Below, one piece after another: positions 3,439 through 21,411 of a stretch of DNA of 64,000 nucleotides; the stretch's first letter is position 1; every line of letters begins with the position of its first letter. A program made the position numbers and the translations under genes. The DNA comes from a virus. Taxonomy: Duplodnaviria > Heunggongvirae > Uroviricota > Caudoviricetes. The notes below the pieces were generated by a model. That model was not told where the DNA came from. It ran no database searches and saw nothing but the letters and a program-made list of their open reading frames with translations. The stretch is from positions 31,003-95,002 of IMG/VR virus record IMGVR_UViG_3300027721_000010; one strand, given 5' to 3'.

Positions 3439-3514
3439 ATTAGCAAAATTAGTTGTTAGTAATGTATTTTCAATGAGTTATAAGCAAATAGATAGCATAA
3501 TATAGCTATCCCAT

Positions 3515-4156: not shown

Positions 4157-4165
4157 TATACCACA

Positions 4166-7100
4166 CTAATAGGCATCTGAGGCAGAGTTGTATTTTAAGT
4201 TACCAAAACGTACGTCAATCAAACGAGGAATCCAGTTCTTGAACACCATGAATGAGTTGCTGTATACATTGAGGTTGATGAGACGCTTGTTAGCCTCAGA
4301 CATGTTACCCAGAGCATCTGCTGTAACTTGTTGCACCTTCCTTCTGAGCTCAACAACACTTTCAGACTTCTGTTCTACGCCAGGGATGGTGAACTGATCT
4401 CCTTCAATTTTAGCAAGTTTCAACACACCCTTCTCTTCAATCAGCTTCTGTACATCCTGTTCAAACTTATCAGCCCTAGCCTTTCTTTCTTCTCTAGTTC
4501 CGTCGTACATCTTGTTGAGGTATTCAGGTTGCTTTCTCAAATACTCTCTAGCGTTAACCACCTCACCATTAACCACTACGCTGTTCTCAAGGAAGGCATA
4601 GAAGTTAACAGCCTGTACAGCACGGTCAGACTTTCTCATCAATATCATGAGCCAGTCTTGTATACTCTCTTGACTCATCTTGCTGAGAGACAAGTCTTTA
4701 GCTAAGTCTCTATTGTAATTTTCTGTAAAAGGCATGAAGAAGTTCATAGCTGCTACATACTTCTTAGCATCTTCTCCTCCAAGTTTATTCCACAAGAGCT
4801 TACCCTCAGCCTTTACAAAGTCAGATTTAGTAAAATACTTACCTGAGTTGATCAAGGATTGTGTAGTACCACCAAACAAGTTGGACATGGATGATAGAAC
4901 GTTCAAGCCCAGAGCCTGCAGTTGGAAGGTGGTATTCAGAGCATCGATGCTCTTGTTCATACTAATTTGTCTTCCACCCAATCCTTCAGGCATCAACTTA
5001 AATCCAAGCGTTTTGTTTATCTTTTCTCCTACACCACCAATCTTTCCAAGCACGCTATCAAATGTATCACTCTCAATAAACTTCTGTTGATAGATGATTG
5101 CCTTGGTCATATTCTCTATGATTTGGGCATTCTCACTATTGTCAGGATTATATTGAAGTTCACCATCTTTATATTCTGTCTTTCCCCAGAAAGATGAGGC
5201 GATTGATCTTTTGTTTCTTTCAAGTCTATTTAATGCAAGTGCTTGATCTTCAATGTCACTGAGGTATTTATATCTTAGAGCAAACTCATTATACAGAGCT
5301 ATTGTACGGAATAAATCCGTACTCACCTCACTATCCAGCTCTCTGGTAAAATAGATAGGAATTCTATCCACCAACTTACCGCTGATAGGATCACGCTGTC
5401 CATACCCCACATCACCCTCATCAATAGATATCGTCCTGAGGAACTGCTCACCTATAGTGACATTACCACCAAGGGCTAGTTTCTCTGTCAGTCCTTTTCT
5501 CACCCAAGGCAAGAACACTCTAGACTGCTTAGCATTGATGTATCCAATATCTCTGTACATCTCGTTTCTCTCACGGATGTAGTTATAGAAATCAATGGCT
5601 GGTTGGTTAACAAACTTACCAGAAGCATCCTTCTTTGTGAGCTCCTTCCATTCTTTAGACTCCCAAGTTTCCTTATTAGGAAACTGTTTCACCTCATCGT
5701 ACAACAGCCATCCCAAGGACTGGTCTGTACTAACATTGTATAGCTCCTTTGCTCTTCTCAATTCATTCTTAATCTGGCTAGCAATATCTTCTTCTGTACC
5801 AATGCGAGGTTTATCAAATATACGTGCCTCTTCCTCAGTTAGTTTCTTACGTAGGTGTTCAGCATAAGCAGCCCTATCTACATTCTCTCTAATCCACTTA
5901 TAGTCCTTTTGGTCTATAGCAGAGTTGAGTCTTGAATAGAACTGAGGATTAAACTCATCAATCAATTGATTCTTATCTCTGATGGCATTCTGATAGCGCT
6001 CCTCAATCTTCTCCACCTCCTGCTTGTATGACTCATCAGTGAGCTCAGGTTTCATCTTGTTGAGCTCATCCATTTCAGCTTTCTTGCGAAGCTCAGCTTC
6101 CTTCTGATATGAATCAGCTTTCTTTCTAATGATGTCAAAGTAGTTCTTAGCAGTGAGACCTTTTGATCTAGCCCATGCATCATATCTTTTCTTTATCTCG
6201 AGGAGCTTTCTGCTTTCTGCAGCTGTGTCCATACCTGCATAAGTGAATGCGCGGTTGGCTTTTCTAAACAGAACACTTGCAGCTTTAAGCTGTATAGTGG
6301 CTGTGCTACTAAACCATTTACTCACTCCTCTTACAGACTTCTCTCCTTCCTTAGCTCCCTTCACCTTTTCAGACATTGCAATGAAGTCATTGGTAAAGCT
6401 CTTATCAAGACGTAACAGTCTGGATCTCAAGAGCTTAGCTTCAGCACTAGCTTTATAGATTTCGTTCTTAACATCCTCAGTAGCTTTATCAAGCGTACCT
6501 CTGAACAGGAAGTCAAGTTCTGTAGCTAAGTCAGAATACGTATCTAGTGCATCCAATCCATCATCTATTTCTTTTGTAAATGCACTACGCTCTTCTTCTG
6601 TAAAGCTTTCAGGATCTTTGCCCTTGAACTTCTCATCAAACTTGGTGAATATATCGTTGATCTGTTTGTTGATTATACGAGCCTGATAGACAAGAGCTTT
6701 AGCATCTCTTCTCATTTGAAGATGACGTATAGCTGTATACAGAGAGTTAAGCTGTTCAGCCTTGCTCAGTTTCTCACCAGGCACCACCTTTCTCTCAGAC
6801 ATTCTCTTGTAGATGCTATTGAGTTTAGTCAACAGATCATCAAGCTCTTCTTCTCCTGTAGCTTCTTCCTCTAGACCAACAGGAAGCAGGTAATCTTCCT
6901 GGATGTTCTTTATGTCTACATCTCCAATCTTTATGCTAGAAAGACGTGGTAGGATTTCCTTTTTGTAGTCAGCTTCTGTATACACAGCCTGAATAGGAAT
7001 CATCCTGGTCTGGTCAAACTGCTCCTCCTTAATACCATATGCTGTTTTGAGGATCAACTTGTACTGGTTCATTTGTGTACGCCATGCGTTCACCTTGTAC

Positions 7101-8634: not shown

Positions 8635-11600
8635 TTATCTTTTACAAGGAGCTGAATCATCTGCTCCCTCAAGGTTTTCAGGATCGGTATCAAAAAGATC
8701 TAGTTGTTTTGCCTCAGAAATTTCTGTAGGTGTATCTACCTTTACATCTGTTGTAGGAGTAGGAGACTGCTGCATAACATCATCCACCTTAATGTCCTGA
8801 GACAGAGCAGCAATGATGTCATTGTTAGGAATCTCGTTCTTGATTCTAACAGTGTTGTTATCCACTACAGAAGGTTTGAAGTCTGTGTAATACTCTGATC
8901 CAAAAGCACCCTCACCGTATAGGTTGATGAGCTTGTACACATACTTGTTCTCTATCTGACCCTTGTAGTTCTTTACACCTATTGTTACAGGAGTGCCATC
9001 TGGATAGGTAACTTTCTGATAACCAAGCACTTGTGTGATAAGTGGGTTGCCAGCCTTCTTCATCAGGGCATATGCTTTCTTAGAAACACCTACACCCTTC
9101 AGAACATCCACAAGTTCACCACCATTTTTATTAGCTACCACTCTCTTAATCTTTACGTAGTCACCACTAGAGATTGCATCGTTGTCATAATTCTCGTCCA
9201 AATATAGGATTTTTCTTTCTGTGGATTTGATTTTAAGTGCATCATTGCTAGGGAAAACAGGAGAGTAGTATTCGTATACAGCCTCACCAGCGATGTCTGA
9301 GAAGAGTGGTTGCTGGGAGGTAGTAATGAAGAACACCTTGTTCAGCGGATAGAAGACCATTTTATCATCCCAGTTATTACGCTGGAACATGCCCTGAGCA
9401 AACGCTTCCATGTCTTCTGTTACTCTGAGTCCAGCAATTACAGGAGCCACAGTAGCGCTGTAATCCTCAATCGGGATGATGTTTTTGATAGACACCCCTG
9501 TCTGGTATGTACCCTGAAGGATGGATAGTGTAACTAAATCCTTGTACAGCTGGTTAGTTTTGGGGTTGTTTCTAAGCTCCCTCATCATACCAATGTACAT
9601 GTTCTCACTGGCAGCATCCTTTACATTTGCCATCAGCATCACCGTATGGATACCATTGTCTCTATTGAATCTCACCTCAAGTTGTCTGAGGATTGGTAAC
9701 TCGTTGGCGTACAGTGTTTTAGCTTCTGCCAGACGTGTAGCCACAGATGTGTTAGCGTCAATAAGCAGAGGTTTGATAGAAGCATTCAGTCCTGTTCTAG
9801 TTTGGATAACATAGTCTAGGAAGGATGCTCTTATCTTGTTTGCTATACGAGCGTAGTCATCCTCAGATATGAAGTCTCTCTTCTTGTACTGGTCAAGGAT
9901 TTGATTTGTAATAGCCTTAAATCTGTCTTGATCTAATACAAAGATGGAACCAGCAGCATCCACAGACATACTAAGAATTCTTTTCTGCTGTCCGATGTGG
10001 GAGTTGTTAAGGACCTCTTCAGGTGATGTGAAGATGTTATTCTCCATAGCCATATCAGTCTTCATAATCTTCTTACCCAGCGCATCAGAGCTCTTGAACT
10101 TAGTAGTGTCGTAGTTAATAGCCTGTGTAAAGTTGAAGTTGTATTGGGCCATCTTAGCCAGTCTCAAGAACTGCTCAAATATCAACTGCTGCTCAGCATT
10201 CTTCTTGAGGGTGCTAAGTTTACCGTTCTGTGCAAACTCACTGATGTTATCTGCAAGAGTGGACGTATCAATAGTGTTAGCCACCTCAGCAACATCTCCA
10301 TCTTTTACAGGGAATCTGTTCTTGATGTTCTTTATGTTCTCAGCACGAAACAGTCCACGAGATTCTGTTCCTTCTACAAGCTCCAAGTATTGCTTGATGA
10401 TTGGTTGGTTCATGAACAGAGCTGCTGTACGAAGAGGAACACCAATTCTCTGCATGAGCATGAATGTACCTACAGCCTTATCACTTCTAATAATCTTCAT
10501 GATGTATGGGTCCTTAGCCACATCCACAAATGATGTGATGTATCCAGACAGACCATCAGAGATGTACATTTTACCATCTGCATCCAGTACACCAGACATA
10601 GATATATACTCTTTCCCATTGATTGTCACCTTGTTGTGAGGCAACAGAATGGTGCCATCACCCAGGAACTTCTGGTCAAACTCAGATGTGTTCTTGATTC
10701 TCTCAGGGTCCATGTACACTGTAACCTTTTGTGACAAAGAGTGGTTAGTGATATTTACAGCACCAATACCCACCCAGCGCTTAGCAGTTACAAACGCATG
10801 TCTGAGGGTAGTCATGTAGTTGGGATCAAGAATCTTGTTCTTTACATCCGCTTCTTTATCATTTGTAAGAGTCTCAAGCTCTGATGCAATCTTCTTCAGA
10901 CCACCATCTGATACAGGAGTGAGTAGACGTTGGAAGTTTTCAGGAAGTGTAATCAGTTCCTCAAGAGAATCATAGTATTCGTTCTCGAGGGAGCGCTTAT
11001 ACATGTCCTCTACATAGGATGTCTTGAGCTTATCATTAAGAATCTTCTTGGTCAGTTTTACCTTCTTATTTTCCAGATTCTCAACCTGTTGTGCAACGTA
11101 CTCGCTTGCACTAATATTATTATCTGCAGCTTGTTTTACAATCTCCTTAAACATGTTAAGGTGGTCATAGAAGAAATCAATGTCTTGTTCATCCAAAGCT
11201 GCGTTTATGGACTCTGTAGAGAAGTCTGACAGATCCTCTAGATCAATCAGCACCTTGAACATTCTATCTCTAAATCCTTCAAACTTTTCTATTCTGTCAA
11301 TCTCAGCCTGAACAGTATCTTCGTACACCTTTGTAAAGAATGCTTTTGTAGCTTCCTCAGATCCTTTGTATTTAACAAGTCTGACGTTACCTGTAGCATC
11401 TACATATACGTTTCTCAGGTAGGTGTTGAGTTTATCTATGTCAAAGTCAGATCCTGCCTTGGTAACCAGTTCTGTAGGAACAACCACTGTGTCACCCATG
11501 TATTGAGGAAGGAACCCTGCCACCTTGAATGAGTCTACGGAAGACAAAGATTGTGTAGGAATACGGAATCCGATACCTCTCAGAATCTTCTGACCATCAG

Positions 11601-14600
11601 GACTCTTGTTAATATAGTCTAAGATCTCTTGGTCAGTCTTGAACTTCTTAGCAGCCAGTTTATCTTTAAACCAATGAGGTAATAACACCTCCATGTAAGG
11701 CTTATCCTTTGTATAGAACTTGAGGGTGTCGCTTGTCATGCGCACATTCTTCTTCTCACTGTCATCCAGTGCCTCATATTCCTCTCTAGATATCTTCTTC
11801 CATCCTTCGTCAGTTTTCAGAACCAGGCTTCTTCCTTTCTCAGCACTCTCCCACATGGTTACAGGAGCCTGAACTAATGGCTTACCACCCATAGACGGAG
11901 AAAGGATAGCTTTCTCAATCATCGAGTAGATGATGTTTCTAATCTGTACATAGGAAGGTGATGCTTCAAAAGGAATTCTGAACTCGTCTTCCTCATTAAG
12001 TCTCACTGTATCCTTGGCGTTTTCAGAGAGCTCTCTACGGAACATCTCATATACCAACACCTCAGACAATGCTTGTTTATCTTCAAGTGTAAACCCTTGA
12101 CCGTTGTCTACAATACCTAGTTTGTTGAGCAAACGATTGTAAGCATTTACATGCATTCTATCTAGGTCTCTAACATTACGCTTGTATAGCTCTTTGATAT
12201 ATTCAGCACGTGCACCTGTAGCTCCAAACACCTGACCATTAGCAAAAAGGTCAATGCTTGCAAGCTTTGTCAACTGTGAACCACGGGTTTGTTCTTTACC
12301 CTCATCATAGATGTTCTCTACCTGGATACCGTATGCCTTCCAAGGAACATCAACAAAGTTGTTAAATGCTTCCTCATTAAAGGTACCGTTGGGGTTGTAC
12401 AGATTGTGCAGACCCTCAGCACCCACCTTTCTTCCTGATTCTACAATTGCATAACCATATCCTTGCTCCAACATTTGTGTGTAGAACTTCTCCATGCTGG
12501 TTCCTTCCACCATGCTATAGTAGATAGGCATCTGAGAGAACTTGTCCAACACTAGGTTGATGCTGTTTGAGTTGTATTTAACACCAGAAACAATAGGCTT
12601 CAATATCTCCAGTGTGTATTTGGGAGAAGGTGTAGAAGTGAGCTTCTGGTCGTAAGCTTTGAGCTCAGGACTTGTGTAGGTATACTTACCCTTAGCAGCC
12701 AGCTTCTTTCTTGTATAAGCCATCTGCCACTGGTGGAAGTTTTCAGCCTCATCAGACCATTGACCGTTCTTCAGCTTCACCTCTCTGAAGGTATTATCCA
12801 TCAGCCAGGAAGCAGCATCTGCCTCATCAATACTACCATAGGCAGGAATGATGTTAGCCAGAGCACTAGCTATCTTAGGATCTGCAAGAGTGACGGTTCT
12901 TGTATAGGCCTTGTGATTATGATAGCCAGGATCTCCAGGCTTAAGCATAATACCAGCCACCTCGTTCATGTTGTCATTCAGGAAGTTATCAAACGCAGCT
13001 ACATCAAATGTAGTTCTACGTGGAGACAGGAAGCTCTTGATACGCTTGGTCTCATCAAACTTACCATTCTTTGTAGAGAACTGAAGAGGATCACCAAAGA
13101 GCACCTTGTGATACTCAATGTTATTAATAGTGTAGTTGGCAGTTCTGAACATCAATATTTGCTTCAGAACATCTTCTACAATTGGTTGATTCTTATTGAT
13201 ACCAAACTTACGAGCGAATGTATTGTCCAAGCTATCCCATGTCCAGCCAGCCTCAACAGGAGAGATTTGACTATTTCTCTGGAGGATGTTCATAGTCTTT
13301 GTAGAAATACCGTCCAAGAAAGCAGCTACATCCTGATTTATAGAATCCTGGTTCTCATTTACATACTTCTCAATCTCCTCCATAGAAACTGACTTATCAG
13401 CGATCATGCTGTTCAGTTTCTCTAGGGTTTTAGGACGGAGGATATCATTAAAGAAGCGCAGCTCCTTAGCTCTTGCCTTAACATTGTTCAGCTTACCGCG
13501 AGTCTTATAGTCACGGGCTAGAGCAATGTCATCCATCAGATAGCCCTTGTAGATTGAGTAGATCTTGTTCCAAGCCTTTCCATCTACAAACTCTTGATAA
13601 CCAATCTGATTGCCCACATTCATCATCCATTCTGTAGAGCTATCTGCAGGGATGAGAATGTAGAAGTTACCATTCAGGTTCTCGTTAATCTCAAGAGAGA
13701 ATCTCTCTCCAAGTCCAAGCTTAGAAATAGACTTACTATCAGCATCATCAGAGTTGTCGATTCCCTGGATGGTCATCACCTTGATCTCTCTGATTCTGTT
13801 GCCCTCTTTATCAAAGTAGAGTCCGCCTTTCTTCAGGATTTGAGAGTGGGTGGAGAACATGTCTTGTAGCTCAGGACGCTTTTCTAATAGCTCATCCAGT
13901 GTAGCAGCTTCATTGAACTCGTTCTCAAACACTGATGCAGTGTTGTTATCAATGTAGGCCTGCATTCTCTTTCTCTCAATACCAAAGTAGGTGATGTCCT
14001 GGTTGGGGTTGTTTGCATTTACATACAAACGACCAAGGTTATTCAGCTGTGTGGTGATGCCCAGTGTCTGGCTGGTTACAGTGAGTAGGTCATCTGCGCT
14101 CTGTAAGAAGGCACGGATGTCTTTTACAGCATTAGCAAACTGATTCTTTTGACTCTTGTCCCCACCATAAGTCTTCAGCTTCTTGTATGTATCTAGGTCG
14201 AACGTAACACCAATCTCATTCAAAAACTCAATCATCTGCTTAGGAGAACTAATAGGCATCTCCTTCAGCTTCTTGGTGTTAGCTTTATAAGTTTCTGTTT
14301 TACTGTCGTAGATAACAGCTCCCTTAGATGTTCTAGCCAACACCTTCATGTTGTTCACCCAGGTGTCAACTTGTTGTCTAGCAGCGGTTTGTACGTTCGC
14401 AGGAGTGGTGAATGTCTCACCTCCAGCAATACGCTGTACCATTGCATCAGGTCTCTGTCTTGTAAAGGTTTGCATGAAGCTGATGAAGAATCTCCAGTCC
14501 TCAGCTTTAAAGTTGCCGTATGGAATAGATTTGTCTTTCTTTCCACCCAGACGTGTGAACATGCGAACGTAATCAGCATCATTGGCAGCAAGCTCTATGA

Positions 14601-17600
14601 GCTTGTCCATTGTCTTATTTACATCACTGCTGTTGGATAGTCTCTCAAGCAATGTAGCAAATGCTGTACTGAAGTTGAGTAGCTTATATCCCAGCACCTC
14701 TGGATCAATCTGTGCATCAGGCATCTCAAGACTGAGAGAGTTGCTCTGATCCATGGCCTTAGCCTTGAACAGGGTGGCCAAGGTGAACTTGACATCAAAA
14801 GATGCCCCCTTCTTAATATCTACAGTGAATGCTTCTGGAGCATAGTCGTTCTTGTTGGTGTCCTCACCATTAAGACTTAGTCTATCCTCTGTATCAAAGT
14901 TCACGCCCAGGGTGCGCAGCTTCTCTTTTGTTCTCTGTACCAGTGCGTTCCAACGAGCATCTCCAAGCTTGGTGCGTTTGTTTACACCACCCCATCCTGG
15001 AGTGTCGCCTTCTCTCAGATACATTTGTTCTACCTCTCCAAATATCTGCTTGCTTGTAAGCTTCTGTGGAGAGTAGAGATATTTCTTTGCCTTGAGGAAC
15101 ACTAGACCAGCAACTCTTGCTGTCATGTCCTCAACAAACTTCTGAGCTGCTTGCTCAGACAGTCCTTCAATTTCTCTATACGCAGCAGCCTCATTCTTCA
15201 CAGTGTCAGGGAGAACACTCTCCTTATACTTACCCATGTCAATTGCATCAAACAGTTGTTGTTTGAGCGTGGGCTTAGCATTAAAGTTCTTGAAGAAGTT
15301 GATGATAGATCTGAAGAATCTGAGAATCAACTCTTTAAGACTTCTTGCAGGAAGTTTACCCACTCTGAAATCAGCAAAGTCATCAGCAATTCTTTCTTTA
15401 GCTTGTGTATCTGTGGCAGCAGCATACTCAACATCAGTTCCACTAGCTCTATCTCTGAAGGTGCCAGACTGACTTCTGAACTCATTCAGTAGGTCTTGTC
15501 TTTCACCAGGAGACAGGAATCCTTTCCATATACCCTCAAAGATTTCATGGTATTCTGTACCACGTGTAGCGCTTCTGTAGAACTTAGCCACACCATTCTC
15601 AAACACACCCCAAGCTGTAATGTCTGGGTTTCTGCGGATGATGTTTTCCAATATCTCAAAAGGAATACCAGGAACGTTAGCAGCGTGCCATTTCCTGAAC
15701 TCAGCCAAGTCTAGGTTGTCAATCTTATCTTCTTTCTTCTCACCCTTAGCCACTACACGGAAGTCTGTGCTAGGTCCTGTAGTGCCTTTGTTATCATAAG
15801 GTTGAGCTGCAGGTTTAGTTTCTTCTAAAGCAGATATCTGCTCATTGGTGATCTTTGCACCAAGGATAGAATTAAAGTCAGCAATAACTTCTGCAGAAGG
15901 TACGGGTAGCACCAGGTCTGGAAAGGTCATGCTTACAGAAGATCCTAGCTTACCAGGTCTTCCTAATCCACTAAAATAAGCAGAGGTAACATATTTAATC
16001 TTATCACTCTCAGTAGTAATTTCTTTGTTGGTCTGAGGGTCCAACACCTTACCCAGTCGCTTGAACGTATCGTTATAAGCTTTTAACTGTTCGTAAAGAT
16101 TGAGCAGATAGGTTTTGGTTGCAGCAGACATGCTTTGCAACTGCGCATCTGTAATAACATCATAGCGTTTACCATTGCCCTCATAGAACGCTTGCTCCAG
16201 TATTCTGAAAACTGTCTTGTTTACTTCTGTTGAAACTGGTGCAGCAGTAGGCTTAGCCTCTTCACCAAGAGCTCTACGATTGATAATATCTTCATACTCA
16301 CCCACATTTGTTGCACCAGACTCTTGATAGGAAAGAAGACTATGTTGGAACTCGTGCTCTATTACAAACTTCTCAAACTCTTCATATGTAGCAAATGCAT
16401 TCTCAGGAAGAGCTGTAGCAAAAGAACCATCCTTCTGTTTACGTGGTTTGGTCCAGGCCTTCTCATCAAACTTCTTTTTAAGAAGATCTCTGTTCACCAA
16501 TATCTTATTCTCAGCACGATTGTATTGAGCAGCACCAGGTTCTCCTGTAGCTGTTGTGATACTACTGCTGTCCACTACAGTGATTCCTTTATATGTCTCT
16601 GTAGCAGGGGCAGCTTCTTCTGAAGGAGTGGGTTTCTCTTTGAGTTTCTTCTCTAAAGAGGCACCAGCTATAAGACCAATGTAATCACCTGCAATCTCCT
16701 CATCCGTCTTAGCAGCATCCTTTACACGATCATATCTCTCAAGCTGTTCAAGCTGAGGAACTATTTGGGTATTTATGAGCTCCTTGTTCTTTGCAATCCT
16801 AGCCACTGTGTCTCTAGTGAGTTGACTATCAACTAGTTCCACTGTAACAGAACCATTAGGTTCAACACTGGCTGTGAACTCAAAGTTTCCAGACTCTTTT
16901 CTAAGCGAGAATACATTAGGAGTTTTACCATCTAATACATACCCATCAACTGTGGGAACTCCTTCAGCTTCAGCCTGTTGAGCAGGAGCTGTGTATTGTA
17001 CATCCAGCTCCAATCCTTCCAGAGTGGAATACTTCTGTTTGTAGGAATATGGTTCAGCTGGTGTGGGTTTAGATACAGACGTGAATAAAGGGGTGTCCTT
17101 TACAGCACGCTTACTACCATCGGGATAGGTGGCAGACAACAAATAGGAGTTGTAGCTAGCCCACTCTCTGGAAGCAATCTGATCATTCTCATCTATGAAG
17201 TATTCAGTGAACGCGTAGTCACTGTAAATAGTCTTATTGTTTACGTTAGAGAAGGTCTTCTGGAGTTCTTCTATTATCTCTGCTTCTCTATCAGCCACCT
17301 CAGACAGAGGAATATCCTTACCTGCAATACGGAGATCCATAGTTTCAGGGTTGATATACACCTGATTCTTGGAAGGACTCTTTCCTTGCTTCCAGTGAAG
17401 GACGTTCTGTAGGAAGTTTACATAGGACTCTTCTAGATTACTATTTAATGTAAATCCTTTGGATAGCTCACTGAGTAGACGGAAGATTGTTTTGGCCTCA
17501 GCCTTAGTGAATCTTCTATTGTTCAACACCTGGAGGGTGTCACCATACTGTAAAACAGGTGTACCTCTCAACACGTTGACAGGCAGTCCGTTATGTACAA

Positions 17601-20600
17601 TCTCACCTGTAACAGATATTACAATCAGTCCTTTGTTACTAGTCTTGTCTTCAGGAACCAACACCTCACCTACGTGGTTTCTCTCAAAGGTCATCACTGG
17701 TCTACCCTCAGCATTACGAACAGGATTACCATCCTCATCTAATGCAGGAGTGTCATTCACAATAGGAATACCACGAGATATACGGAAGTCATGGATAGTG
17801 AAAGCTGTAGCAGGAGCACCCATAAGTTGCTCTCTATACTTAGACCAAGCCTCTGAATAAGCTTTAGCCTCAGCCTCCTGACCAGCTCTGTAACGAGCTT
17901 TATTCTTGCTATCATTGAGCTCAGCAGTGGGCATTGTTTGGAACACCACCTTATTCAAATCCACCTGTGTTCCCACCTCATTCATAGGATTACCAGCCTC
18001 ATCTGCAAAGAACAGCTTGTTGCCTTTTTGGACAACAAACACTTGGGCAATAAATCCTGTGTCAGGCTTTCTCACCTTCTCATTAAACTCTTTCAGCTCA
18101 GCCTCAGTCATCTTGGTTGTATCCACTTTGAAGGACAAAGCAGCTAATCCCACAAGTCCCAGGCTAGCCTCTTGATTAGGTGTAACAAGGATGGCCTTAA
18201 CATTAGCTCTGTTCTTATTGTTCTTTACATTATTCAGGAACTTTCTAGAACGTACAATGTGAGGGGCTGACTTGGTAGGATCATTGTAATCCTCTGATTC
18301 TGTCATGCTTGAGGTGAATAGAATAGTTGCTTCTTTCTTAGCAGGCTCTCTTTCACTAAACTCCTGAGAGGAGTCAATAGTGGTTACAGTACCAGAGTTC
18401 TTTTCAAGTTCATCTTGTTGACGTGTGAGCTCTTCTTTCTTCTCAACTAGTTTCTCCTGAGCAGTTTGAACTCTCTCATACCCAGTCAGTTGCTTGGGTT
18501 GGATGTTCTGTATATTACCAGCGAGGTCTTCTACCTTCAATGTACCATCCTCATTGATTTCCAACACCTTAACCTTTTGCAGGTCTTGGAGATCAGCATT
18601 CATATCTTCTGCAGCTTGATCAGCATCCTCCTTATTATCATAGAAGGTGCTTTCGCCAGTTGGAGACACCACCTCATAACGATCGTCTGCAATCTTGTTA
18701 ACCTTGGCTGGTTTTAATCCTGCAAGCTCATATTCTCTGTCTGCCTGAGGAACCTCTTTTGCACCAGCTTTATTTACAAAGTCTACCTCTGGAATAACAG
18801 CCGCTTCTGGTGTTTCTTCTTTGGAGGCTTCTTCCTCTTGCTCATTAGCCATTTGCTCAGCCTGGTTGAAGAACTTATTAAATCCTTCCTCAGAAGCCAT
18901 CTTATCAAATGACTCAGATGCATCATCTCTGAGCTGTTCAAGTGAGTTTATATCTGTGCCAAGTTTATATATCTCAGCAATCTTCTCTGATGGGATTATC
19001 CTTTTATCAATGCTTTCCTGACCGCTCATCTCAAAGTTGAGCAGGTTCTCAAAGGTCTTGATGTCAATATCACCCTTGTTAAGTGCAAGATTGATACGTT
19101 CAGACAGAGTGCGTAGAGTTTTAATCTTATCTCTAGTCCCTCTTTTATCTGCAGGAGTGGTGAACTCTGTAATAGTATCTCCAAGTGTTTTAGCCTGCTG
19201 TTCATAAGTTTCAGCAAGCTCTTTCAGACTATCTCTTCTAGTCAGGCTTGATATAGTGTCATTACTAAGTAGAGGATTGATTGCAGATAGACTGTTCTGA
19301 ATGTTATTCAATCTATCTCTAACGTCAGGAGCAACGCTAGCATAGTATGCCAGGTTGGTTTTCCAATCGTTGTATGTGTCAAAGTTAAAGTTTTCTTCAA
19401 GCTGGTCTTCTGTTGTAGGATTGATGTGAGAAACAAAAGGATTTTTGAAAGTGAAGTTTATGCTATCGTAAACATCCTTGATCTCATTAGCTTTCTCAAT
19501 CAGAGAGTCTACATACTCGTTAACAGTTTTCTTGCTAGACTCGTTAAAGTCCATTCCAAAGGTCTTCTCAAACTGTTCCTTGTCCAGATCCTTCAGCATC
19601 TCAAGCTGCTCAATGGTAACATCGTGCATGCCAGCAGGAATACGAGAACTTACAAATCCAAAGAATTGCTCATTCTTCAGATTCTTATATCTGAATACGT
19701 TCCCACTCTTTGCAGCCTCTTCCATCTCTCTAGCATTATTTGCAGCATTGAGAGTGTTAGAGTATTGATCTTGCAGGATGCCTGTAAGTCCGTAGCGGTT
19801 TAGAACATTAATGGTACTCTGTAGTCTTTGATCCTTGGTAGGCTCACCCATTGCTTTTTGGATTCTGCCAGCGATACCTCCTGTAATAACAGCAGACAAT
19901 CCACCAATGATCATGTTCTCTATACCAGCACTGCTACCAAACTGTTCAGCCAATCCCTTATTGGTAGATACAAGTGCTTCGTTCAGAGTGTTCCAAGTTT
20001 CTCTATTCTTTGGATCTTTTAGGTTCTTGTACTTTCTAGTGTAATAGTCGTATGTACCTTTCTCTACAGCATATTGTCCACCTTCCTCATATACACCTTC
20101 AGCAAGTACATTTTTCAGGGTGGGTTTTACAGAATCCCACACCTTAGCACCTACACCTGTAAGTGCCTTTCTTTCAAACACATCCAAAGATCCTTCAGCA
20201 AGACCAATTCTTCCTGCATCATCAAGACTTCTTTCGATTGTACCTGGTACACCTTTAGATGCATTAGTAAATGATTTGAACAAGCTGCCAAACTGAACAG
20301 CGTTAGATACAGTGAGCAAAGCCATGTTAGCACCAAACCTGGTGTTCATAGCATCTGTTGCGTATGCTTCGATCTCATCTAGCGCAACTCCTTGAGGTTC
20401 CATTCCTCCGTTCTCACTCCTGTATTGATTGATGAGCTCATCTCTCACCTGTCTGTAGGAGTCTCTAGCTTCAACAGCAGCTTCTGTTCTAGCAGATCCG
20501 TACACGGTGAGACCATAACGAAAACCACTATTAAGTTTTGTAGCTGCAGCAGCTCTTCCTAAATCACTAAGATTGTCAATAAATCTCTCTGACTTTCCAA

Positions 20601-21411
20601 GAGCCCTTGCTGTGTCCAGCACTTTATCAAGCTTATTTGTGCCTGTAAAAAGTTTATTGAGATAGAGAGAAGCTCTACCTATTTGATTGGCAATCAATGG
20701 TATTTCACCAACACCACCTGTAACATATGCCACAGCAGCATCCTGCACCAATGCACCACCAATAGCACCAGCTGTAAATCCTAAGTTTTTAAGAACCTTG
20801 TCACCCCAGAAGTTTGCAGACCCACGCATGAAAGGAATCATGGATCTGTATGGATGTTCTCTTTCCCATCTACTTACGTAGTTAGGAAATGTATCTTCTA
20901 GGTTTTTGAGCCACAAGTCAATGTCAGACTCATATCCATCTTTCCCTGAAAGTTCAGAAAGACTACCGTTCTTTATAGCAGCTACGGTGTTTGGAATTGT
21001 AGCAAATGATTGAGCAAATGTTCCTATACCTGTAGCAAAGAACTTAGCAGCAGCGTTTCCCAATTGTGTATACCAAGGCTGATTTAAGCTGTATATATTC
21101 TCAAGATCAACACCTCTCAGGTAGGTTCCGTAACGTTGGTTAGAAAGAAGTTCACTTCTTGGAACCATTGACATAGGTCCACTGAAACTTCTTGTTTCGT
21201 TTGCAGCAAGACCAATCTTAGACAAGTCACTAATCCTCATTCCACCAAAATTCCCGCCAGAAGGATTGCCTCCTGAAGGAAGCCCTAATGGTCGAAAGTT
21301 GACATCAACATCCCTAATAGTAGGAGACCCCAGATAGGAATCAGGAGTTCCTGGTAGCTGGGGATTCTGGTCACGAGAGTTATCTATAAGTTCGTTGTCA
21401 AAAATTGGCAT
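8635..21411 (-). CDS. Giant protein of 4258 aa (12.8-kb ORF), candidate multidomain virion-packaged 'polyvalent' or cargo protein. It contains HEFQH (residues 1686-1690, nt 16342..16356) and DFDID (residues 3322-3326, nt 11434..11448).
   Basis: A single uninterrupted ORF under the standard code. Both motifs were checked at the DNA level (rc of atgttggaactcgtg = HEFQH; rc of atctatgtcaaagtc = DFDID). The gene sits downstream of the tail genes, as the giant proteins of crAss-like phages do. Confidence 0.65.
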   Translation of the reverse strand: MPIFDNELIDNSRDQNPQLPGTPDSYLGSPTIRDVDVNFRPLGLPSGGNPSGGNFGGMRISDLSKIGLAANETRSFSGPMSMVPRSELLSNQRYGTYLRGVDLENIYSLNQPWYTQLGNAAAKFFATGIGTFAQSFATIPNTVAAIKNGSLSELSGKDGYESDIDLWLKNLEDTFPNYVSRWEREHPYRSMIPFMRGSANFWGDKVLKNLGFTAGAIGGALVQDAAVAYVTGGVGEIPLIANQIGRASLYLNKLFTGTNKLDKVLDTARALGKSERFIDNLSDLGRAAAATKLNSGFRYGLTVYGSARTEAAVEARDSYRQVRDELINQYRSENGGMEPQGVALDEIEAYATDAMNTRFGANMALLTVSNAVQFGSLFKSFTNASKGVPGTIERSLDDAGRIGLAEGSLDVFERKALTGVGAKVWDSVKPTLKNVLAEGVYEEGGQYAVEKGTYDYYTRKYKNLKDPKNRETWNTLNEALVSTNKGLAEQFGSSAGIENMIIGGLSAVITGGIAGRIQKAMGEPTKDQRLQSTINVLNRYGLTGILQDQYSNTLNAANNAREMEEAAKSGNVFRYKNLKNEQFFGFVSSRIPAGMHDVTIEQLEMLKDLDKEQFEKTFGMDFNESSKKTVNEYVDSLIEKANEIKDVYDSINFTFKNPFVSHINPTTEDQLEENFNFDTYNDWKTNLAYYASVAPDVRDRLNNIQNSLSAINPLLSNDTISSLTRRDSLKELAETYEQQAKTLGDTITEFTTPADKRGTRDKIKTLRTLSERINLALNKGDIDIKTFENLLNFEMSGQESIDKRIIPSEKIAEIYKLGTDINSLEQLRDDASESFDKMASEEGFNKFFNQAEQMANEQEEEASKEETPEAAVIPEVDFVNKAGAKEVPQADREYELAGLKPAKVNKIADDRYEVVSPTGESTFYDNKEDADQAAEDMNADLQDLQKVKVLEINEDGTLKVEDLAGNIQNIQPKQLTGYERVQTAQEKLVEKKEELTRQQDELEKNSGTVTTIDSSQEFSEREPAKKEATILFTSSMTESEDYNDPTKSAPHIVRSRKFLNNVKNNKNRANVKAILVTPNQEASLGLVGLAALSFKVDTTKMTEAELKEFNEKVRKPDTGFIAQVFVVQKGNKLFFADEAGNPMNEVGTQVDLNKVVFQTMPTAELNDSKNKARYRAGQEAEAKAYSEAWSKYREQLMGAPATAFTIHDFRISRGIPIVNDTPALDEDGNPVRNAEGRPVMTFERNHVGEVLVPEDKTSNKGLIVISVTGEIVHNGLPVNVLRGTPVLQYGDTLQVLNNRRFTKAEAKTIFRLLSELSKGFTLNSNLEESYVNFLQNVLHWKQGKSPSKNQVYINPETMDLRIAGKDIPLSEVADREAEIIEELQKTFSNVNNKTIYSDYAFTEYFIDENDQIASREWASYNSYLLSATYPDGSKRAVKDTPLFTSVSKPTPAEPYSYKQKYSTLEGLELDVQYTAPAQQAEAEGVPTVDGYVLDGKTPNVFSLRKESGNFEFTASVEPNGSVTVELVDSQLTRDTVARIAKNKELINTQIVPQLEQLERYDRVKDAAKTDEEIAGDYIGLIAGASLEKKLKEKPTPSEEAAPATETYKGITVVDSSSITTATGEPGAAQYNRAENKILVNRDLLKKKFDEKAWTKPRKQKDGSFATALPENAFATYEEFEKFVIEHEFQHSLLSYQESGATNVGEYEDIINRRALGEEAKPTAAPVSTEVNKTVFRILEQAFYEGNGKRYDVITDAQLQSMSAATKTYLLNLYEQLKAYNDTFKRLGKVLDPQTNKEITTESDKIKYVTSAYFSGLGRPGKLGSSVSMTFPDLVLPVPSAEVIADFNSILGAKITNEQISALEETKPAAQPYDNKGTTGPSTDFRVVAKGEKKEDKIDNLDLAEFRKWHAANVPGIPFEILENIIRRNPDITAWGVFENGVAKFYRSATRGTEYHEIFEGIWKGFLSPGERQDLLNEFRSQSGTFRDRASGTDVEYAAATDTQAKERIADDFADFRVGKLPARSLKELILRFFRSIINFFKNFNAKPTLKQQLFDAIDMGKYKESVLPDTVKNEAAAYREIEGLSEQAAQKFVEDMTARVAGLVFLKAKKYLYSPQKLTSKQIFGEVEQMYLREGDTPGWGGVNKRTKLGDARWNALVQRTKEKLRTLGVNFDTEDRLSLNGEDTNKNDYAPEAFTVDIKKGASFDVKFTLATLFKAKAMDQSNSLSLEMPDAQIDPEVLGYKLLNFSTAFATLLERLSNSSDVNKTMDKLIELAANDADYVRMFTRLGGKKDKSIPYGNFKAEDWRFFISFMQTFTRQRPDAMVQRIAGGETFTTPANVQTAARQQVDTWVNNMKVLARTSKGAVIYDSKTETYKANTKKLKEMPISSPKQMIEFLNEIGVTFDLDTYKKLKTYGGDKSQKNQFANAVKDIRAFLQSADDLLTVTSQTLGITTQLNNLGRLYVNANNPNQDITYFGIERKRMQAYIDNNTASVFENEFNEAATLDELLEKRPELQDMFSTHSQILKKGGLYFDKEGNRIREIKVMTIQGIDNSDDADSKSISKLGLGERFSLEINENLNGNFYILIPADSSTEWMMNVGNQIGYQEFVDGKAWNKIYSIYKGYLMDDIALARDYKTRGKLNNVKARAKELRFFNDILRPKTLEKLNSMIADKSVSMEEIEKYVNENQDSINQDVAAFLDGISTKTMNILQRNSQISPVEAGWTWDSLDNTFARKFGINKNQPIVEDVLKQILMFRTANYTINNIEYHKVLFGDPLQFSTKNGKFDETKRIKSFLSPRRTTFDVAAFDNFLNDNMNEVAGIMLKPGDPGYHNHKAYTRTVTLADPKIASALANIIPAYGSIDEADAASWLMDNTFREVKLKNGQWSDEAENFHQWQMAYTRKKLAAKGKYTYTSPELKAYDQKLTSTPSPKYTLEILKPIVSGVKYNSNSINLVLDKFSQMPIYYSMVEGTSMEKFYTQMLEQGYGYAIVESGRKVGAEGLHNLYNPNGTFNEEAFNNFVDVPWKAYGIQVENIYDEGKEQTRGSQLTKLASIDLFANGQVFGATGARAEYIKELYKRNVRDLDRMHVNAYNRLLNKLGIVDNGQGFTLEDKQALSEVLVYEMFRRELSENAKDTVRLNEEDEFRIPFEASPSYVQIRNIIYSMIEKAILSPSMGGKPLVQAPVTMWESAEKGRSLVLKTDEGWKKISREEYEALDDSEKKNVRMTSDTLKFYTKDKPYMEVLLPHWFKDKLAAKKFKTDQEILDYINKSPDGQKILRGIGFRIPTQSLSSVDSFKVAGFLPQYMGDTVVVPTELVTKAGSDFDIDKLNTYLRNVYVDATGNVRLVKYKGSEEATKAFFTKVYEDTVQAEIDRIEKFEGFRDRMFKVLIDLEDLSDFSTESINAALDEQDIDFFYDHLNMFKEIVKQAADNNISASEYVAQQVENLENKKVKLTKKILNDKLKTSYVEDMYKRSLENEYYDSLEELITLPENFQRLLTPVSDGGLKKIASELETLTNDKEADVKNKILDPNYMTTLRHAFVTAKRWVGIGAVNITNHSLSQKVTVYMDPERIKNTSEFDQKFLGDGTILLPHNKVTINGKEYISMSGVLDADGKMYISDGLSGYITSFVDVAKDPYIMKIIRSDKAVGTFMLMQRIGVPLRTAALFMNQPIIKQYLELVEGTESRGLFRAENIKNIKNRFPVKDGDVAEVANTIDTSTLADNISEFAQNGKLSTLKKNAEQQLIFEQFLRLAKMAQYNFNFTQAINYDTTKFKSSDALGKKIMKTDMAMENNIFTSPEEVLNNSHIGQQKRILSMSVDAAGSIFVLDQDRFKAITNQILDQYKKRDFISEDDYARIANKIRASFLDYVIQTRTGLNASIKPLLIDANTSVATRLAEAKTLYANELPILRQLEVRFNRDNGIHTVMLMANVKDAASENMYIGMMRELRNNPKTNQLYKDLVTLSILQGTYQTGVSIKNIIPIEDYSATVAPVIAGLRVTEDMEAFAQGMFQRNNWDDKMVFYPLNKVFFITTSQQPLFSDIAGEAVYEYYSPVFPSNDALKIKSTERKILYLDENYDNDAISSGDYVKIKRVVANKNGGELVDVLKGVGVSKKAYALMKKAGNPLITQVLGYQKVTYPDGTPVTIGVKNYKGQIENKYVYKLINLYGEGAFGSEYYTDFKPSVVDNNTVRIKNEIPNNDIIAALSQDIKVDDVMQQSPTPTTDVKVDTPTEISEAKQLDLFDTDPENLEGADDSAPCKR

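What the first reader, a model, noticed from the sequence alone, without database searches (positions are those of the whole stretch)
8635..21411. 12.8-kb single ORF encoding a 4258-aa protein, a candidate virion-packaged polyvalent or cargo protein
This is one of the largest possible phage proteins. It lies after the tail genes and is followed by a 1487-aa protein, an arrangement typical of crAss-like and N4-like ejected-protein modules. It is read with the standard code without interruption.
Basis: partly seen in the sequence, partly recalled or inferred. Interest (0 to 1): 0.6.

Follow-up and report, generated by a model that had tools for sequence, protein, structure and literature searches.

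The report
Fused virion RNA polymerase of crAss-like phage
The 12.8-kb gene is real and encodes the giant RNA polymerase that crAss-like phages carry inside the virus particle and inject to start infection; that makes it a typical member of a known class, not a new kind of protein.

Summary
The ORF is exactly as described: window 8635-21411, minus strand, ATG start, 4258 codons, TAA stop.

What it is: a crAss-like phage virion RNA polymerase (vRNAP) polyprotein.
- aa 2748-3687 match the solved phi14:2 gp66 vRNAP (PDB 6VR4) by sequence (E 3.7e-21), by profile (99.9%) and by predicted fold (Foldseek E 2.5e-24). The catalytic DFDID motif (aa 3322-3326) is invariant.
- aa ~55-860 are homologous to crAss001 gp47, a virion cargo protein shown by mass spectrometry.
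- The downstream 1487-aa ORF sits where gp65/gp49 sit.
- Upstream lie the crassvirus muzzle protein, IHF, major capsid protein, portal and large terminase.

The fusion is not an artefact. In 66 related IMG/VR contigs the ORF holding the catalytic motif has a median length of 4242 aa, and 63 are at least 3500 aa. The literature already describes fused RNAP polyproteins of up to ~6000 aa.

Two zincin-type modules are embedded. One is an HEFQH domain (aa ~1590-1750) absent from Pfam, PHROGs and NCBIfam; its position varies among related giants. The other is near-universal, and its HExxH has become HExxE in this clade.

Verdict: new member of a known kind.

The parts
8635..21411 (-). Whole ORF: 4258 aa, 478 kDa, pI 5.3. 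A crAss-like virion RNA polymerase polyprotein, i.e. a gp47/gp67-like N-terminal half fused to a gp66/gp50-like RNAP.
   Evidence: Four full-length collinear homologs exist: P0112 (4290 aa), P0120 (4122 aa), P0133 (3970 aa) and the L012 ORF (4025 aa). Related IMG/VR ORFs have a median length of 4242 aa.
18832..21249 (-). Conserved N-terminal region (aa ~55-860), homologous to the crAss001 cargo protein gp47 and weakly to phi14:2 gp67. Biochemical function unknown.
   Evidence: tblastn of the phage collection: aa 102-772 match crAss001 gp47, E 4e-13. hhalign of A3 against gp47 gives probability 95.4%, E 1.7e-8; against gp67 only 64%, E 6e-5. There is no solved relative and no strong transmembrane segment (maximum 19-residue hydropathy 1.34).
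16162..16644 (-). Module A (aa ~1590-1750): a compact zincin-fold domain. It has invariant KAWT, HExxH (HEFQH, aa 1686-1690, nt 16342-16356) and Y-E (E1707). It is an insertion relative to L012 and sits elsewhere in other giants.
16075..16077 (-). Tyr1779 codon, a module boundary. It is an apparent separate gene start in relative L007, an in-frame TAG in L005, and read straight through here.
15322..15714 (-). Module C (aa ~1900-2030): a near-universal gluzincin-like module of these polyproteins. Here it reads YHEIFE (HEIFE, aa 1955-1959, nt 15535-15549), so the second His ligand is replaced by Glu. Invariant downstream residues are E2006 and F2012.
   Evidence: It aligns to the crAss001 gp47 HEAFH at residue 2157. 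Alignment A5 has invariant H, E, E and F. The motif is HExxE in 9 close relatives against HExxH in 17 divergent ones, and HExxE in 56 against HExxH in 17 IMG/VR ORFs. PDB profile hits are only sub-significant (Pro-Pro endopeptidase/Zmp1, E ~0.08-0.1; FtsH, 0.4-0.8).
10351..13170 (-). Two-barrel RNA polymerase catalytic core (aa 2748-3687), homologous to phi14:2 gp66 residues ~832-1683. That span contains both DPBB domains, the Connector, the bridge helix and the trigger loop.
   Evidence: phmmer against PDB hits 6vr4_A, E 3.7e-21. tblastn hits phi14:2 g066, E 1e-31. hhalign gives 99.9%, E 8e-31. The AF2 model (pLDDT 79, pTM 0.74) matches 6vr4_A by Foldseek with E 2.5e-24, probability 1.0 and 1071 columns. 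gp66 landmarks are taken from the Drobysheva preprint.
11434..11448 (-). Catalytic Mg-binding motif DFDID (aa 3322-3326) within GSDFDIDK.
   Evidence: It is identical to gp66 residues 1361-1365. D, F, D, D and K are invariant in all 21 sequences of A4. Alanine substitution of any of the three Asp abolishes gp66 activity (Drobysheva preprint).
8638..10350 (-). C-terminal region of the RNAP half (aa 3688-4258). It is conserved in close relatives and has no assigned function.
   Evidence: Collinear alignment runs to aa ~4200-4248 in P0001, P0003-5, P0032-56 and L012.
4166..8629 (-). Downstream 1487-aa ORF, a positional and weak sequence homolog of the RNAP-associated cargo protein (phi14:2 gp65 / crAss001 gp49). 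It contains no HExxH.
   Evidence: tblastn matches the gene just downstream of the RNAP gene in crAss-like phage cr108_1, E 1e-11. blastp against crAss001 gp49 is weak and was run on a small local database. It is 48-55% identical to the ORF following the giant in L006, L011 and L012. No HExxH was found.

Best explanation
The ORF encodes the virion RNA polymerase polyprotein of a deep-branching, probably environmental, crAss-like phage.

Shown by homology and fold: the C-terminal ~2500 aa form a single-chain two-barrel DNA-dependent RNA polymerase of the phi14:2 gp66 / crAss001 gp50 family with an intact DFDID metal-binding site. The N-terminal ~1800 aa belong to the gp47/gp67 family of 'RNAP-associated' cargo proteins. 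In this lineage the two are normally one gene.

Inferred from experiments on the homologs: the protein is made late, packed into the capsid cargo zone, and pushed through the tail in a partly unfolded state ahead of or with the DNA. It then refolds in the host and transcribes early phage genes independently of the host polymerase.

Inferred and untested: the two embedded zincin-type modules process or activate the polyprotein. These are module A, with a canonical HEFQH plus Glu, and module C, with HEIFE. One possibility is cleavage between the delivery half and the polymerase near the aa ~1779 module boundary. Another is removal of an autoinhibitory element. They could instead act on host envelope or host proteins.
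For: RNAP identity:
- PDB phmmer hits 6vr4_A with E 3.7e-21, including an identical GSDFDIDK.
- tblastn hits phi14:2 'Catalytic RNA polymerase subunit' with E 1e-31 and crAss001 'putative RNA polymerase' with E 1e-24.
- hhalign gives 99.9% over gp66 832-1667. That span contains the Connector (1095-1238), DFDID (1361-1365), bridge helix (1529-1559) and trigger loop (1598-1636).
- The AF2 core model matches 6VR4 with E 2.5e-24. The only other hits are weak matches to PhiKZ/AR9 and cellular beta-prime subunits.
- D-F-D-x-D-K is invariant in 21 homologs that go down to 23% identity.

N-terminal half: it matches crAss001 gp47 with E 4e-13 against the whole phage collection and at 95% by hhalign.

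Virion association of the homologs: gp47, gp49 and gp50 were found by mass spectrometry in crAss001 virions (PMC10172136). gp65, gp66 and gp67 are annotated from MS/MS in phi14:2.

Context: muzzle protein (crAss_MUZ, E 1.2e-33), large terminase, portal, major capsid protein and IHF lie in crassvirus order.

The fusion is genuine and typical: 63 of 66 closed ORFs in related IMG/VR contigs are at least 3500 aa. L012 has a 4025-codon open frame. P0112, P0120 and P0133 are full-length collinear homologs.

The literature states that the three proteins are fused in some phages and are likely cleaved (Drobysheva preprint).

Zincin modules. The MPTase framework comes from Iyer 2017.
Against: - No experiment exists on this phage. 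Packaging, ejection and polymerase activity rest on homologs at only ~20-25% identity.
- The link of the N-terminal half to phi14:2 gp67 is weak (64% probability). No biochemical function is known for that family, and about aa 860-1580 have no homolog outside close relatives.
- Module C lacks a canonical second His in this clade and has only sub-significant zincin profile hits.
- N4 vRNAP, which also carries a zincin-like domain, is packaged unprocessed (Iyer 2017).
Confidence: 0.85

Rival explanations
1. The giant ORF is an artefactual fusion. A sequencing or assembly error would have removed a stop codon or frameshift, so two or three genes that are truly separate (gp67-like, gp66-like) only appear joined.
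For: In the reference phages the parts are separate genes: phi14:2 g067 and g066 (which overlap by 1 nt), and crAss001 gp47 and gp50. L007 has an apparent separate gene start at the position of Tyr1779, and L005 has a TAG there. Many database homologs are only 1200-2400 aa.
Against: Sixty-three of 66 closed ORFs in independent IMG/VR contigs are at least 3500 aa, with a median of 4242 aa. L012, P0112, P0120 and P0133 are independent full-length collinear ORFs at 34-49% identity. The short database proteins start inside conserved motifs or at contig ends, scaffold gaps and frameshifts, so they are fragments. Amino-acid conservation runs continuously across the junction in L004 and L005.
Confidence: 0.02
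2. It is a polyvalent anti-defence effector protein in the sense of Iyer et al. 2017. On this view its main role is to deliver several independent host-targeting activities, with the polymerase-like region vestigial or secondary.
Against: No effector domain such as a methylase, ADP-ribosyltransferase, nuclease or helicase is detectable in this protein. The catalytic DFDID and its surrounding residues are invariant across the family, and the core folds like an active RNAP, which argues for a functional polymerase. About 2500 of the 4258 aa belong to the RNAP protein as delimited in relatives.
Confidence: 0.08
3. It works as one uncleaved 478-kDa chain. The N-terminal half would act as the ejection or anchoring device and stay covalently attached to the polymerase, as in N4 gp50. 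The zincin-like modules would be structural, or would act on host targets such as the cell envelope, rather than on the polyprotein.
For: N4 vRNAP carries a zincin-like domain yet is packaged unprocessed. Module A is dispensable in most relatives. Module C has lost a canonical ligand in this clade. Persistence of the fusion across a large lineage suggests the covalent link is useful. Drobysheva et al. also propose peptidoglycan digestion as an alternative role for the zincin domain.
Against: The same parts function as separate polypeptides in phi14:2 and crAss001, so linkage is not required for activity. Module A keeps every zincin catalytic residue, with up to 80% identity across otherwise ~23%-identical proteins. 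That points to a selected enzymatic function. The literature favours cleavage of fused forms.
Confidence: 0.35

Closest known systems
Cellulophaga phage phi14:2 gp66, virion-packaged DNA-dependent RNA polymerase (PDB 6VR4; Drobysheva et al. 2021)
   Same: There is homology over both DPBB domains, the Connector, the bridge helix and the trigger loop. The GSDFDIDK catalytic stretch is identical. The gene has the same position at the end of the late structural operon and is followed by a large RNAP-associated gene.
   Different: gp66 is a separate 2180-aa protein. Here the equivalent part (aa ~1779-4258) is fused in frame to a ~1780-aa gp47/gp67-like protein. Identity is only ~19-27%. Outside gp66 residues 832-1683 no similarity was detected, so the gp66 Cleft-blocking domain (196-233) could not be located here.
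Bacteroides phage crAss001 gp47, gp50 and gp49 (RNAP-associated cargo proteins; Bayfield et al. 2023)
   Same: The N-terminal half matches gp47 (aa 102-860, plus the module C region, which aligns to the gp47 HEAFH at 2157). The RNAP core matches gp50. The downstream ORF weakly matches gp49. All three crAss001 proteins were found in virions by mass spectrometry.
   Different: In crAss001 these are three genes, and gp49/gp50 lie on the opposite strand from gp47. The gp47 zincin motif is a canonical HExxH at its C-terminus. Here the equivalent is HExxE, and in L007 it lies on the RNAP side of the boundary. crAss001 gp47 has no module A.
Fused 'huge polyprotein' RNAPs of crAss-like phages (Yutin et al. 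2018, as cited by Drobysheva et al.; review PMC10136315: up to ~6000 aa)
   Same: It is the same phenomenon: RNAP and adjacent cargo proteins encoded as one giant ORF. Gene boundaries vary between relatives, as noted by Yutin 2021.
   Different: Only two of the three proteins are fused here, because the gp65/gp49-like ORF stays separate. This lineage is not one of the gut families: its nearest large terminases are Leptolyngbya phage Lbo-JY46 (41%) and Cellulophaga phi17:2/phi4:1 (34%). I could not read Yutin 2018 itself, so I cannot say whether this exact architecture was described there.
Coliphage N4 gp50 virion RNAP (Schitoviridae)
   Same: The two are functional analogues. Both are giant ejected virion polymerases with a zincin-like HExxH domain in the same chain, and both are encoded next to other ejection proteins.
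   Different: They are not homologous. N4 gp50 is a T7-like single-subunit RNAP, whereas this one is a two-barrel RNAP. No sequence or fold match to N4 vRNAP was found.
Zincin-like MPTase domains of polyvalent proteins, and minimal zincins (ArdC C-terminal domain, minigluzincins, SprT/Wss1, YbeY)
   Same: Module A has a beta-sheet, an HExxH helix and a following helix with an invariant Glu. Its position varies and it sometimes occurs in several copies within giant phage proteins, as described for MPTases.

Membership tests
crAss-like virion RNA polymerase (phi14:2 gp66 / crAss001 gp50 family, two-barrel RNAP) | D-F-D-x-D catalytic metal-binding motif, conserved across orthologs | tested here: met
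   DFDID lies at aa 3322-3326 within GSDFDIDK, identical to gp66 1361-1365. It is invariant in 21 homologs.
crAss-like virion RNA polymerase (phi14:2 gp66 / crAss001 gp50 family, two-barrel RNAP) | Sequence homology spanning both DPBB domains, the Connector, the bridge helix and the trigger loop in a single chain | tested here: met
   phmmer E 3.7e-21. hhalign 99.9%, E 8e-31, over gp66 832-1667. gp66 landmarks are.
crAss-like virion RNA polymerase (phi14:2 gp66 / crAss001 gp50 family, two-barrel RNAP) | Three-dimensional fold like gp66 | tested here: met
   The AF2 model of aa 2741-3750 (pLDDT 79, pTM 0.74) matches 6vr4_A by Foldseek with E 2.5e-24, probability 1.00, query TM-score 0.55 and 1071 columns. 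It is the only hit with E <= 0.001. This is a predicted model, not a solved structure.
crAss-like virion RNA polymerase (phi14:2 gp66 / crAss001 gp50 family, two-barrel RNAP) | Encoded at the end of the late structural/cargo operon of a crassvirus-type genome | tested here: met
   The block carries muzzle (crAss_MUZ), IHF, major capsid protein, portal and large terminase on the same strand. The order is syntenic with phi14:2 and Lbo-JY46.
crAss-like virion RNA polymerase (phi14:2 gp66 / crAss001 gp50 family, two-barrel RNAP) | Physically present in virions, ejected, and responsible for rifampicin-resistant early transcription | not testable with these tools
   This is known only for the homologs.
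gp47/gp67 family of RNAP-associated cargo proteins | Sequence homology to crAss001 gp47 / phi14:2 gp67 | tested here: met
   Against gp47: tblastn E 4e-13 and hhalign 95.4%. Against gp67 the evidence is weak: hhalign 64%, E 6e-5. The match covers only aa ~55-860 plus module C.
Zincin-like metallopeptidase (MPTase of polyvalent proteins, Iyer et al. 2017): module A | HExxH on a helix, with a Glu on the next helix, packed against a small beta-sheet | tested here: met
Zincin-like metallopeptidase (MPTase of polyvalent proteins, Iyer et al. 2017): module A | Membership of a named sequence family (Pfam, NCBIfam, PHROG) or similarity to the zincin domain of phi14:2 gp65 | tested here: not met
   There are no significant hits. 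hhalign against gp65 and gp47 gives probability below 1%.
Zincin-like metallopeptidase (MPTase of polyvalent proteins, Iyer et al. 2017): module A | Metal binding and peptidase activity, including self-processing | not testable with these tools
   This needs biochemistry.
Gluzincin-type peptidase: module C | Canonical HExxH plus a downstream Glu ligand | tested here: not met
   The motif here is HEIFE (aa 1955-1959): the second His is Glu in this clade, while divergent homologs keep HExxH. The downstream invariant E2006 is present. PDB profile hits are only E ~0.08-0.1.
N4-like virion RNAP (T7-like single-subunit RNAP) | T7/N4-type polymerase domain | tested here: not met
   There is no Pfam RNA polymerase hit. 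6VR4 is the only PDB sequence hit at E <= 1. The Foldseek list contains only two-barrel or multisubunit RNAPs.
Polyvalent protein sensu Iyer et al. 2017 | Several unrelated effector domains in one virion-delivered polypeptide | tested here: inconclusive
   The recognisable parts are an RNAP plus two zincin-type modules. About 1500 aa of the N-terminal half have no assignable domain.

The most novel reading that the evidence does not exclude
Module A would be a previously uncatalogued, horizontally mobile zincin-like peptidase family: at least 486 clusters at 50% identity, with invariant KAWT, HExxH and Y-E. It would hop between N-terminal, internal and C-terminal positions of the ejected giant proteins of crAss-like phages. 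In this lineage it would have landed just upstream of the boundary between the delivery half and the polymerase. There it would act as the self-processing protease that releases or activates the RNAP after ejection, compensating for the ancestral module C whose second zinc ligand has changed (HExxH to HExxE).
Probability: 0.2. Interest if true: 0.5.

Novelty: new member of a known kind. Interest (0 to 1): 0.3.

Why it matters
The virion RNA polymerase is the signature machine of crassviruses. It must be unfolded, threaded through the tail and refolded, and it is evolutionarily linked to the eukaryotic RNA-interference polymerases.

This window adds an intact example, read with the standard code, from a deep environmental lineage whose nearest cultured relatives are a cyanophage and Cellulophaga phages. 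In that lineage the cargo half and the polymerase are normally one chain of about 4200 aa.

That has practical value for annotation. Many database 'RNAPs' of 1200-2400 aa are fragments of such genes, and the Lbo-JY46 block is annotated entirely as hypothetical proteins.

It also offers a natural system for the open question raised by the gp66 structure, namely whether activation of the packaged polymerase needs proteolysis. Here a canonical zincin module sits next to the inter-module boundary.

The giant ORF and its cargo role are not new in themselves.

Tried and rejected
- The full-length query to the search for homologous proteins timed out. I used sub-segments instead.
- Pfam and PHROGs on the whole protein gave nothing usable. 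The marginal Reprolysin_2 hit at aa 1036-1139 (E 0.056) contains no HExxH and was dismissed.
- Megablast against the phage collection found no match.
- Local phmmer against the reference proteins found only gp66. The blastp E-values come from a 16-sequence database, so I cite the whole-collection tblastn values.
- Locus L002 was not available to scripts, so the region was re-fetched as L003.
- I considered that the short RNAP homologs reflect genuine alternative gene boundaries or stop-codon recoding, which is known in some crAss-like groups. This was rejected for this lineage. The breaks are contig ends, a 100-N scaffold gap, frameshifts or a garbled 90-nt stretch. In IMG/VR the ORFs are open under the standard code. 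The TAG in L005 replaces a Tyr codon and is the only in-frame stop there.
- A hydropathy scan for transmembrane segments in the N-terminal half gave a maximum of 1.34, so none is convincing.
- A self-comparison for internal repeats found none.
- I tested whether module A is the gp65-type zincin or the gp47 C-terminal zincin. hhalign probability was below 1% for both.
- A profile of the N-terminal half against the PDB gave no meaningful hit.
- The Lbo-JY46 2748-aa protein downstream of its gp47-like gene showed no BLAST similarity to the RNAP half and has no D[FY]DxD motif. I did not pursue this.
Full report
OBSERVATION. The ORF is real and sits at the stated coordinates: window 8635..21411 on the minus strand, with an ATG start, 4258 sense codons and a TAA stop. 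With the local composition (42.3% GC) a stop is expected in 6.4% of codons, so a stop-free run of this length has a probability of about 1e-123. The opposite strand has nothing longer than 219 aa in this span. The N-terminus (MPIFDNEL...) is conserved in homologs, so the start is right. The gene lies in a tight co-directional block. Six nucleotides separate it from the upstream ORF's stop, and 5 nt separate its stop from the ATG of the 1487-aa ORF. The predicted protein is 478 kDa with pI 5.3.

CONTEXT. All large ORFs from ~53.4 kb down to ~3.5 kb are on the minus strand. They form a crassvirus-type late operon:
- large terminase, 51356-53380 (phrog_6681, E 1e-87);
- portal, 48759-51356, and major capsid protein, 45237-46790;
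- an IHF-like ORF, 36249-36725, matching phi14:2 gp73;
- the 1784-aa muzzle protein, 29908-35262 (Pfam crAss_MUZ, E 1.2e-33);
- four ORFs of 288, 484, 1144 and 877 aa without Pfam hits;
- the giant, then the 1487-aa ORF.

This is the order seen in phi14:2 (g072 through g065). The terminase is closest to Leptolyngbya phage Lbo-JY46 (41% identity) and Cellulophaga phages phi17:2 and phi4:1 (34%), and only 25-29% identical to gut crassviruses. The genome therefore belongs to a deep, probably environmental, crAss-like lineage. Lbo-JY46 is syntenic over the tail and cargo block.

WHAT THE PROTEIN IS. Pfam and PHROGs recognise nothing in it. A search of PDB sequences gives one hit: 6VR4, the virion-packaged RNA polymerase gp66 of crAss-like phage phi14:2. 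The E-value is 3.7e-21 over giant aa 2748-3687 against chain 6vr4_A residues 869-1683, with an identical GSDFDIDK. Against the whole phage collection the C-terminal 1558 aa hit phi14:2 g066 'Catalytic RNA polymerase subunit' (E 1e-31) and crAss001 'putative RNA polymerase' (E 1e-24).

A profile of the RNAP half aligns to gp66 832-1667 with 99.9% probability (E 8e-31). According to the gp66 paper this span contains the Connector between the two double-psi beta-barrels (1095-1238), DFDID (1361-1365), the bridge helix (1529-1559) and the trigger loop (1598-1636). Alanine substitution of any of the three aspartates abolishes activity. DFDID lies at aa 3322-3326 here and is the only DxDxD in the protein. 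D, F, D, D and K are invariant in 21 homologs that go down to 23% identity.

An AlphaFold2 model of aa 2741-3750 (pLDDT 79, pTM 0.74) has 6VR4 as its only significant PDB match (Foldseek E 2.5e-24, probability 1.00, 1071 columns). Weak trailing hits go to PhiKZ and AR9 non-virion RNAPs and to cellular beta-prime subunits. The C-terminal part is therefore a crAss-type two-barrel RNAP.

The N-terminal part (aa 102-772) hits a different crAss001 gene, gp47 'putative RNA-polymerase subunit' (E 4e-13; hhalign 95%), and weakly phi14:2 gp67. crAss001 gp47, gp49 and gp50 were all detected in virions by mass spectrometry. They are thought to sit in the capsid cargo zone and to be extruded partly unfolded through tail constrictions narrower than 50 A (PMC10172136). 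phi14:2 gp65, gp66 and gp67 are annotated from MS/MS proteomics. The 1487-aa ORF matches the gene just downstream of the RNAP in crAss-like phage cr108_1 (E 1e-11; compare) and weakly crAss001 gp49. It is 48-55% identical to the ORF that follows the giant in relatives L006, L011 and L012. The window thus carries the canonical gp67-gp66-gp65 trio, with the first two fused.

IS THE FUSION REAL? My first protein searches returned many 1200-2450-aa homologs, which suggested separate genes. Inspection of the contigs showed that these are mostly fragments:
- P0004 is cut by a contig end.
- L004, the closest relative, has a deletion of about 43 codons that is not a multiple of three, and this shifts the frame.
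- L005 has a single TAG in place of Tyr1779 inside a near-identical stretch.
- L009 changes frame in the middle of a conserved segment.
- L011 has a frameshift and a garbled 90-nt stretch.
- The gene call in L012 was broken by a 100-N scaffold gap, yet its frame is open for 4025 codons and collinear with the whole giant.
- Many short 'proteins' begin at a Met inside conserved motifs, for example MAYTR... within WQMAYTR.

Only L007 shows an apparent genuine start, with a TAA two codons upstream of the ATG. It lies exactly at Tyr1779, which marks a real module boundary.

An independent census settles the question. I took the 80 best IMG/VR loci that encode a relative of the RNAP core. The ORF containing the catalytic motif was closed at both ends in 66 of them. 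Their median length is 4242 aa; 63 are at least 3500 aa, 55 are at least 4000 aa, and the longest is 5127 aa. Three full-length collinear proteins (P0112 of 4290 aa, P0120 of 4122 aa and P0133 of 3970 aa) also exist in the protein library. The fused state is the norm for this lineage.

The literature already records this. [quoted passage not shown] Yutin et al. 2021 note that boundaries of these genes vary between close relatives.

EMBEDDED MODULES. Two zincin-type modules lie between the two halves.

Module A (aa ~1590-1750) holds the only HExxH in the protein (HEFQH, aa 1686-1690).
- It is 45-80% identical to segments of otherwise ~23%-identical or unrelated large proteins, some of which carry helicase, PD-(D/E)xK, RNase H or 2OG-Fe(II) domains.
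- In a 22-sequence alignment K-A-W-T, H-E-x-x-H and Y-E are invariant.
- It has no match in Pfam, PHROGs, NCBIfam or the PDB sequences.
- Its AlphaFold2 model is confident (pLDDT above 93 over the core). It shows a small sheet followed by the HExxH helix and a second helix bearing the invariant Glu.
- A profile search of 1.84 billion representatives finds 486 proteins (347 at E <= 1e-10) of 85-6139 aa. The module sits at any position and sometimes occurs in 2-3 copies. Of the 32 hits of at least 3000 aa, most also carry a D[FY]DxD motif and RNAP similarity.
- Within the 78 related IMG/VR RNAP ORFs it is absent from 74 and C-terminal in 4. L012 lacks it at this site. Its internal position here, shared with L004 and L005, is therefore a lineage-specific insertion.
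- It is not detectably the zincin of phi14:2 gp65 or of crAss001 gp47.
- It fits the description of the 'MPTase' domains that Iyer et al. 2017 found to be the commonest domain of virion- or conjugation-delivered polyvalent proteins. They proposed that these domains process such proteins, and they found them always fused to N4-like virion RNAPs.

Module C (aa ~1900-2030) aligns with the HEAFH at residue 2157 of crAss001 gp47. It is present in 73 of the 78 related ORFs, about 1400 aa upstream of the catalytic motif. Its signature is YHExx[H/E] followed 45-70 residues later by (E/K)ExxA(D/E)(D/E)F, with invariant H, E, E and F. In the giant and its clade the second His is Glu (HEIFE, aa 1955-1959). 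The count is 9 of 9 close relatives and 56 of 73 IMG/VR ORFs with HExxE, against HExxH in the more divergent homologs. Profile hits to solved zincins are sub-significant (Pro-Pro endopeptidase/Zmp1 at E ~0.08-0.1, FtsH at 0.4-0.8). The zincin assignment of module C therefore rests on the motif pattern only.

MECHANISM.
- Shown: homology and predicted fold of a catalytically intact two-barrel RNAP; homology of the N-terminal half to a virion cargo protein; crassvirus late-operon context; conservation of the fusion.
- Speculative: that modules A and/or C cleave or activate the polyprotein near the aa ~1779 boundary. Arguments for: the gp66 crystal structure is self-inhibited and its authors raise proteolytic activation; module A is strongly conserved. 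Arguments against: module A is dispensable in most relatives, module C has a non-canonical site, and N4 vRNAP is packaged uncleaved.

COMPARISON AND VERDICT. This is a member of the crAss-like vRNAP family. The motif, sequence, fold and context tests were all met; packaging and activity could not be tested. It is a functional analogue of N4 gp50 but not a homolog. It differs from the characterised references in three ways: two of the three cargo proteins are fused, module A is inserted internally, and module C reads HExxE. None of this changes the kind of system, and the fusion phenomenon is published. I rate it a new member of a known kind, with interest 0.3.

Its 'virion cargo' reading is supported by homology, but it missed the polymerase, wrongly implied N4 kinship and overstated the size. 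The most novel reading that remains open is that module A is an uncatalogued mobile self-processing peptidase of ejected giant proteins (probability ~0.2).

Noticed in passing
window 29908-35262 (-): The 1784-aa ORF is a Crassvirus muzzle protein (Pfam PF25731 crAss_MUZ, E 1.2e-33). PHROGs labels it only 'virion structural protein'. It anchors the block as a crassvirus tail.
   Followed up: partly
L010 (Leptolyngbya phage Lbo-JY46, PP438436.1, 52000-92000): This cultured cyanophage has the closest large terminase (41%) and is syntenic with the window's tail and cargo block, yet every gene in the block is annotated 'hypothetical protein'. Its gp47-like protein is XAI97382 (1552 aa). The following 2748-aa XAI97381 shows no BLAST similarity to the RNAP half and no D[FY]DxD motif, but it has two HExxH motifs. 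It may be a crAss-like phage of a cyanobacterium with a very divergent or different polymerase.
   Followed up: partly
L005 nt 8145-8147; L007 nt 20-34; window 16075-16077: Relative L005 has a single in-frame TAG at the codon equivalent to Tyr1779. That is exactly where relative L007 has an apparent separate gene start preceded by a TAA. The coincidence could reflect a real polymorphism between fused and split forms, or programmed termination or read-through, rather than error.
   Followed up: partly
proteins P0032-P0062; loci L004, L009, L011, L012: Many database 'proteins' of 1200-1650 aa homologous to the RNAP core begin at a Met inside conserved motifs. They are fragments created by frameshifts, scaffold gaps or contig ends. 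Protein-level catalogues therefore badly under-represent the true ~4200-aa genes.
   Followed up: yes
window 15751-16251 (-), giant aa ~1721-1887: A second highly conserved segment ('module B') spans the Tyr1779 boundary. It is ~58% identical to segments of P0011 and P0012, which are otherwise ~22-26% identical gp47-like proteins carrying a PD-(D/E)xK domain (PF12705). Its function is unknown.
   Followed up: no
window 15535-15549 (-), and 56 of 73 related IMG/VR ORFs: Module C reads HExxE instead of HExxH across a large clade, and the change is conserved rather than degenerate. Whether this is an altered metal site or an inactivated peptidase is open.
   Followed up: partly
window 24-611 (+) and 1176-2594 (+): Two plus-strand ORFs at the left end share a C-terminal segment of ~70 aa that matches phrog_31248 (unknown function). 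They lie in a region of higher GC (48% against ~41% elsewhere). They have no Pfam hits.
   Followed up: no
window 57245-57319 (+): A single tRNA-Arg (anticodon TCT) lies in the divergently transcribed region between the late operon and the replication genes. The DNA polymerase is at 61630-63588 (+). No suppressor tRNA was found in the window.
   Followed up: no
window 37455-38705 (-): An ORF resembling a DNA-repair exonuclease or metallophosphatase (phrog_704, E 1e-47) is embedded in the structural block. It resembles the calcineurin-like phosphoesterase g075 found in the phi14:2 structural block.
   Followed up: no
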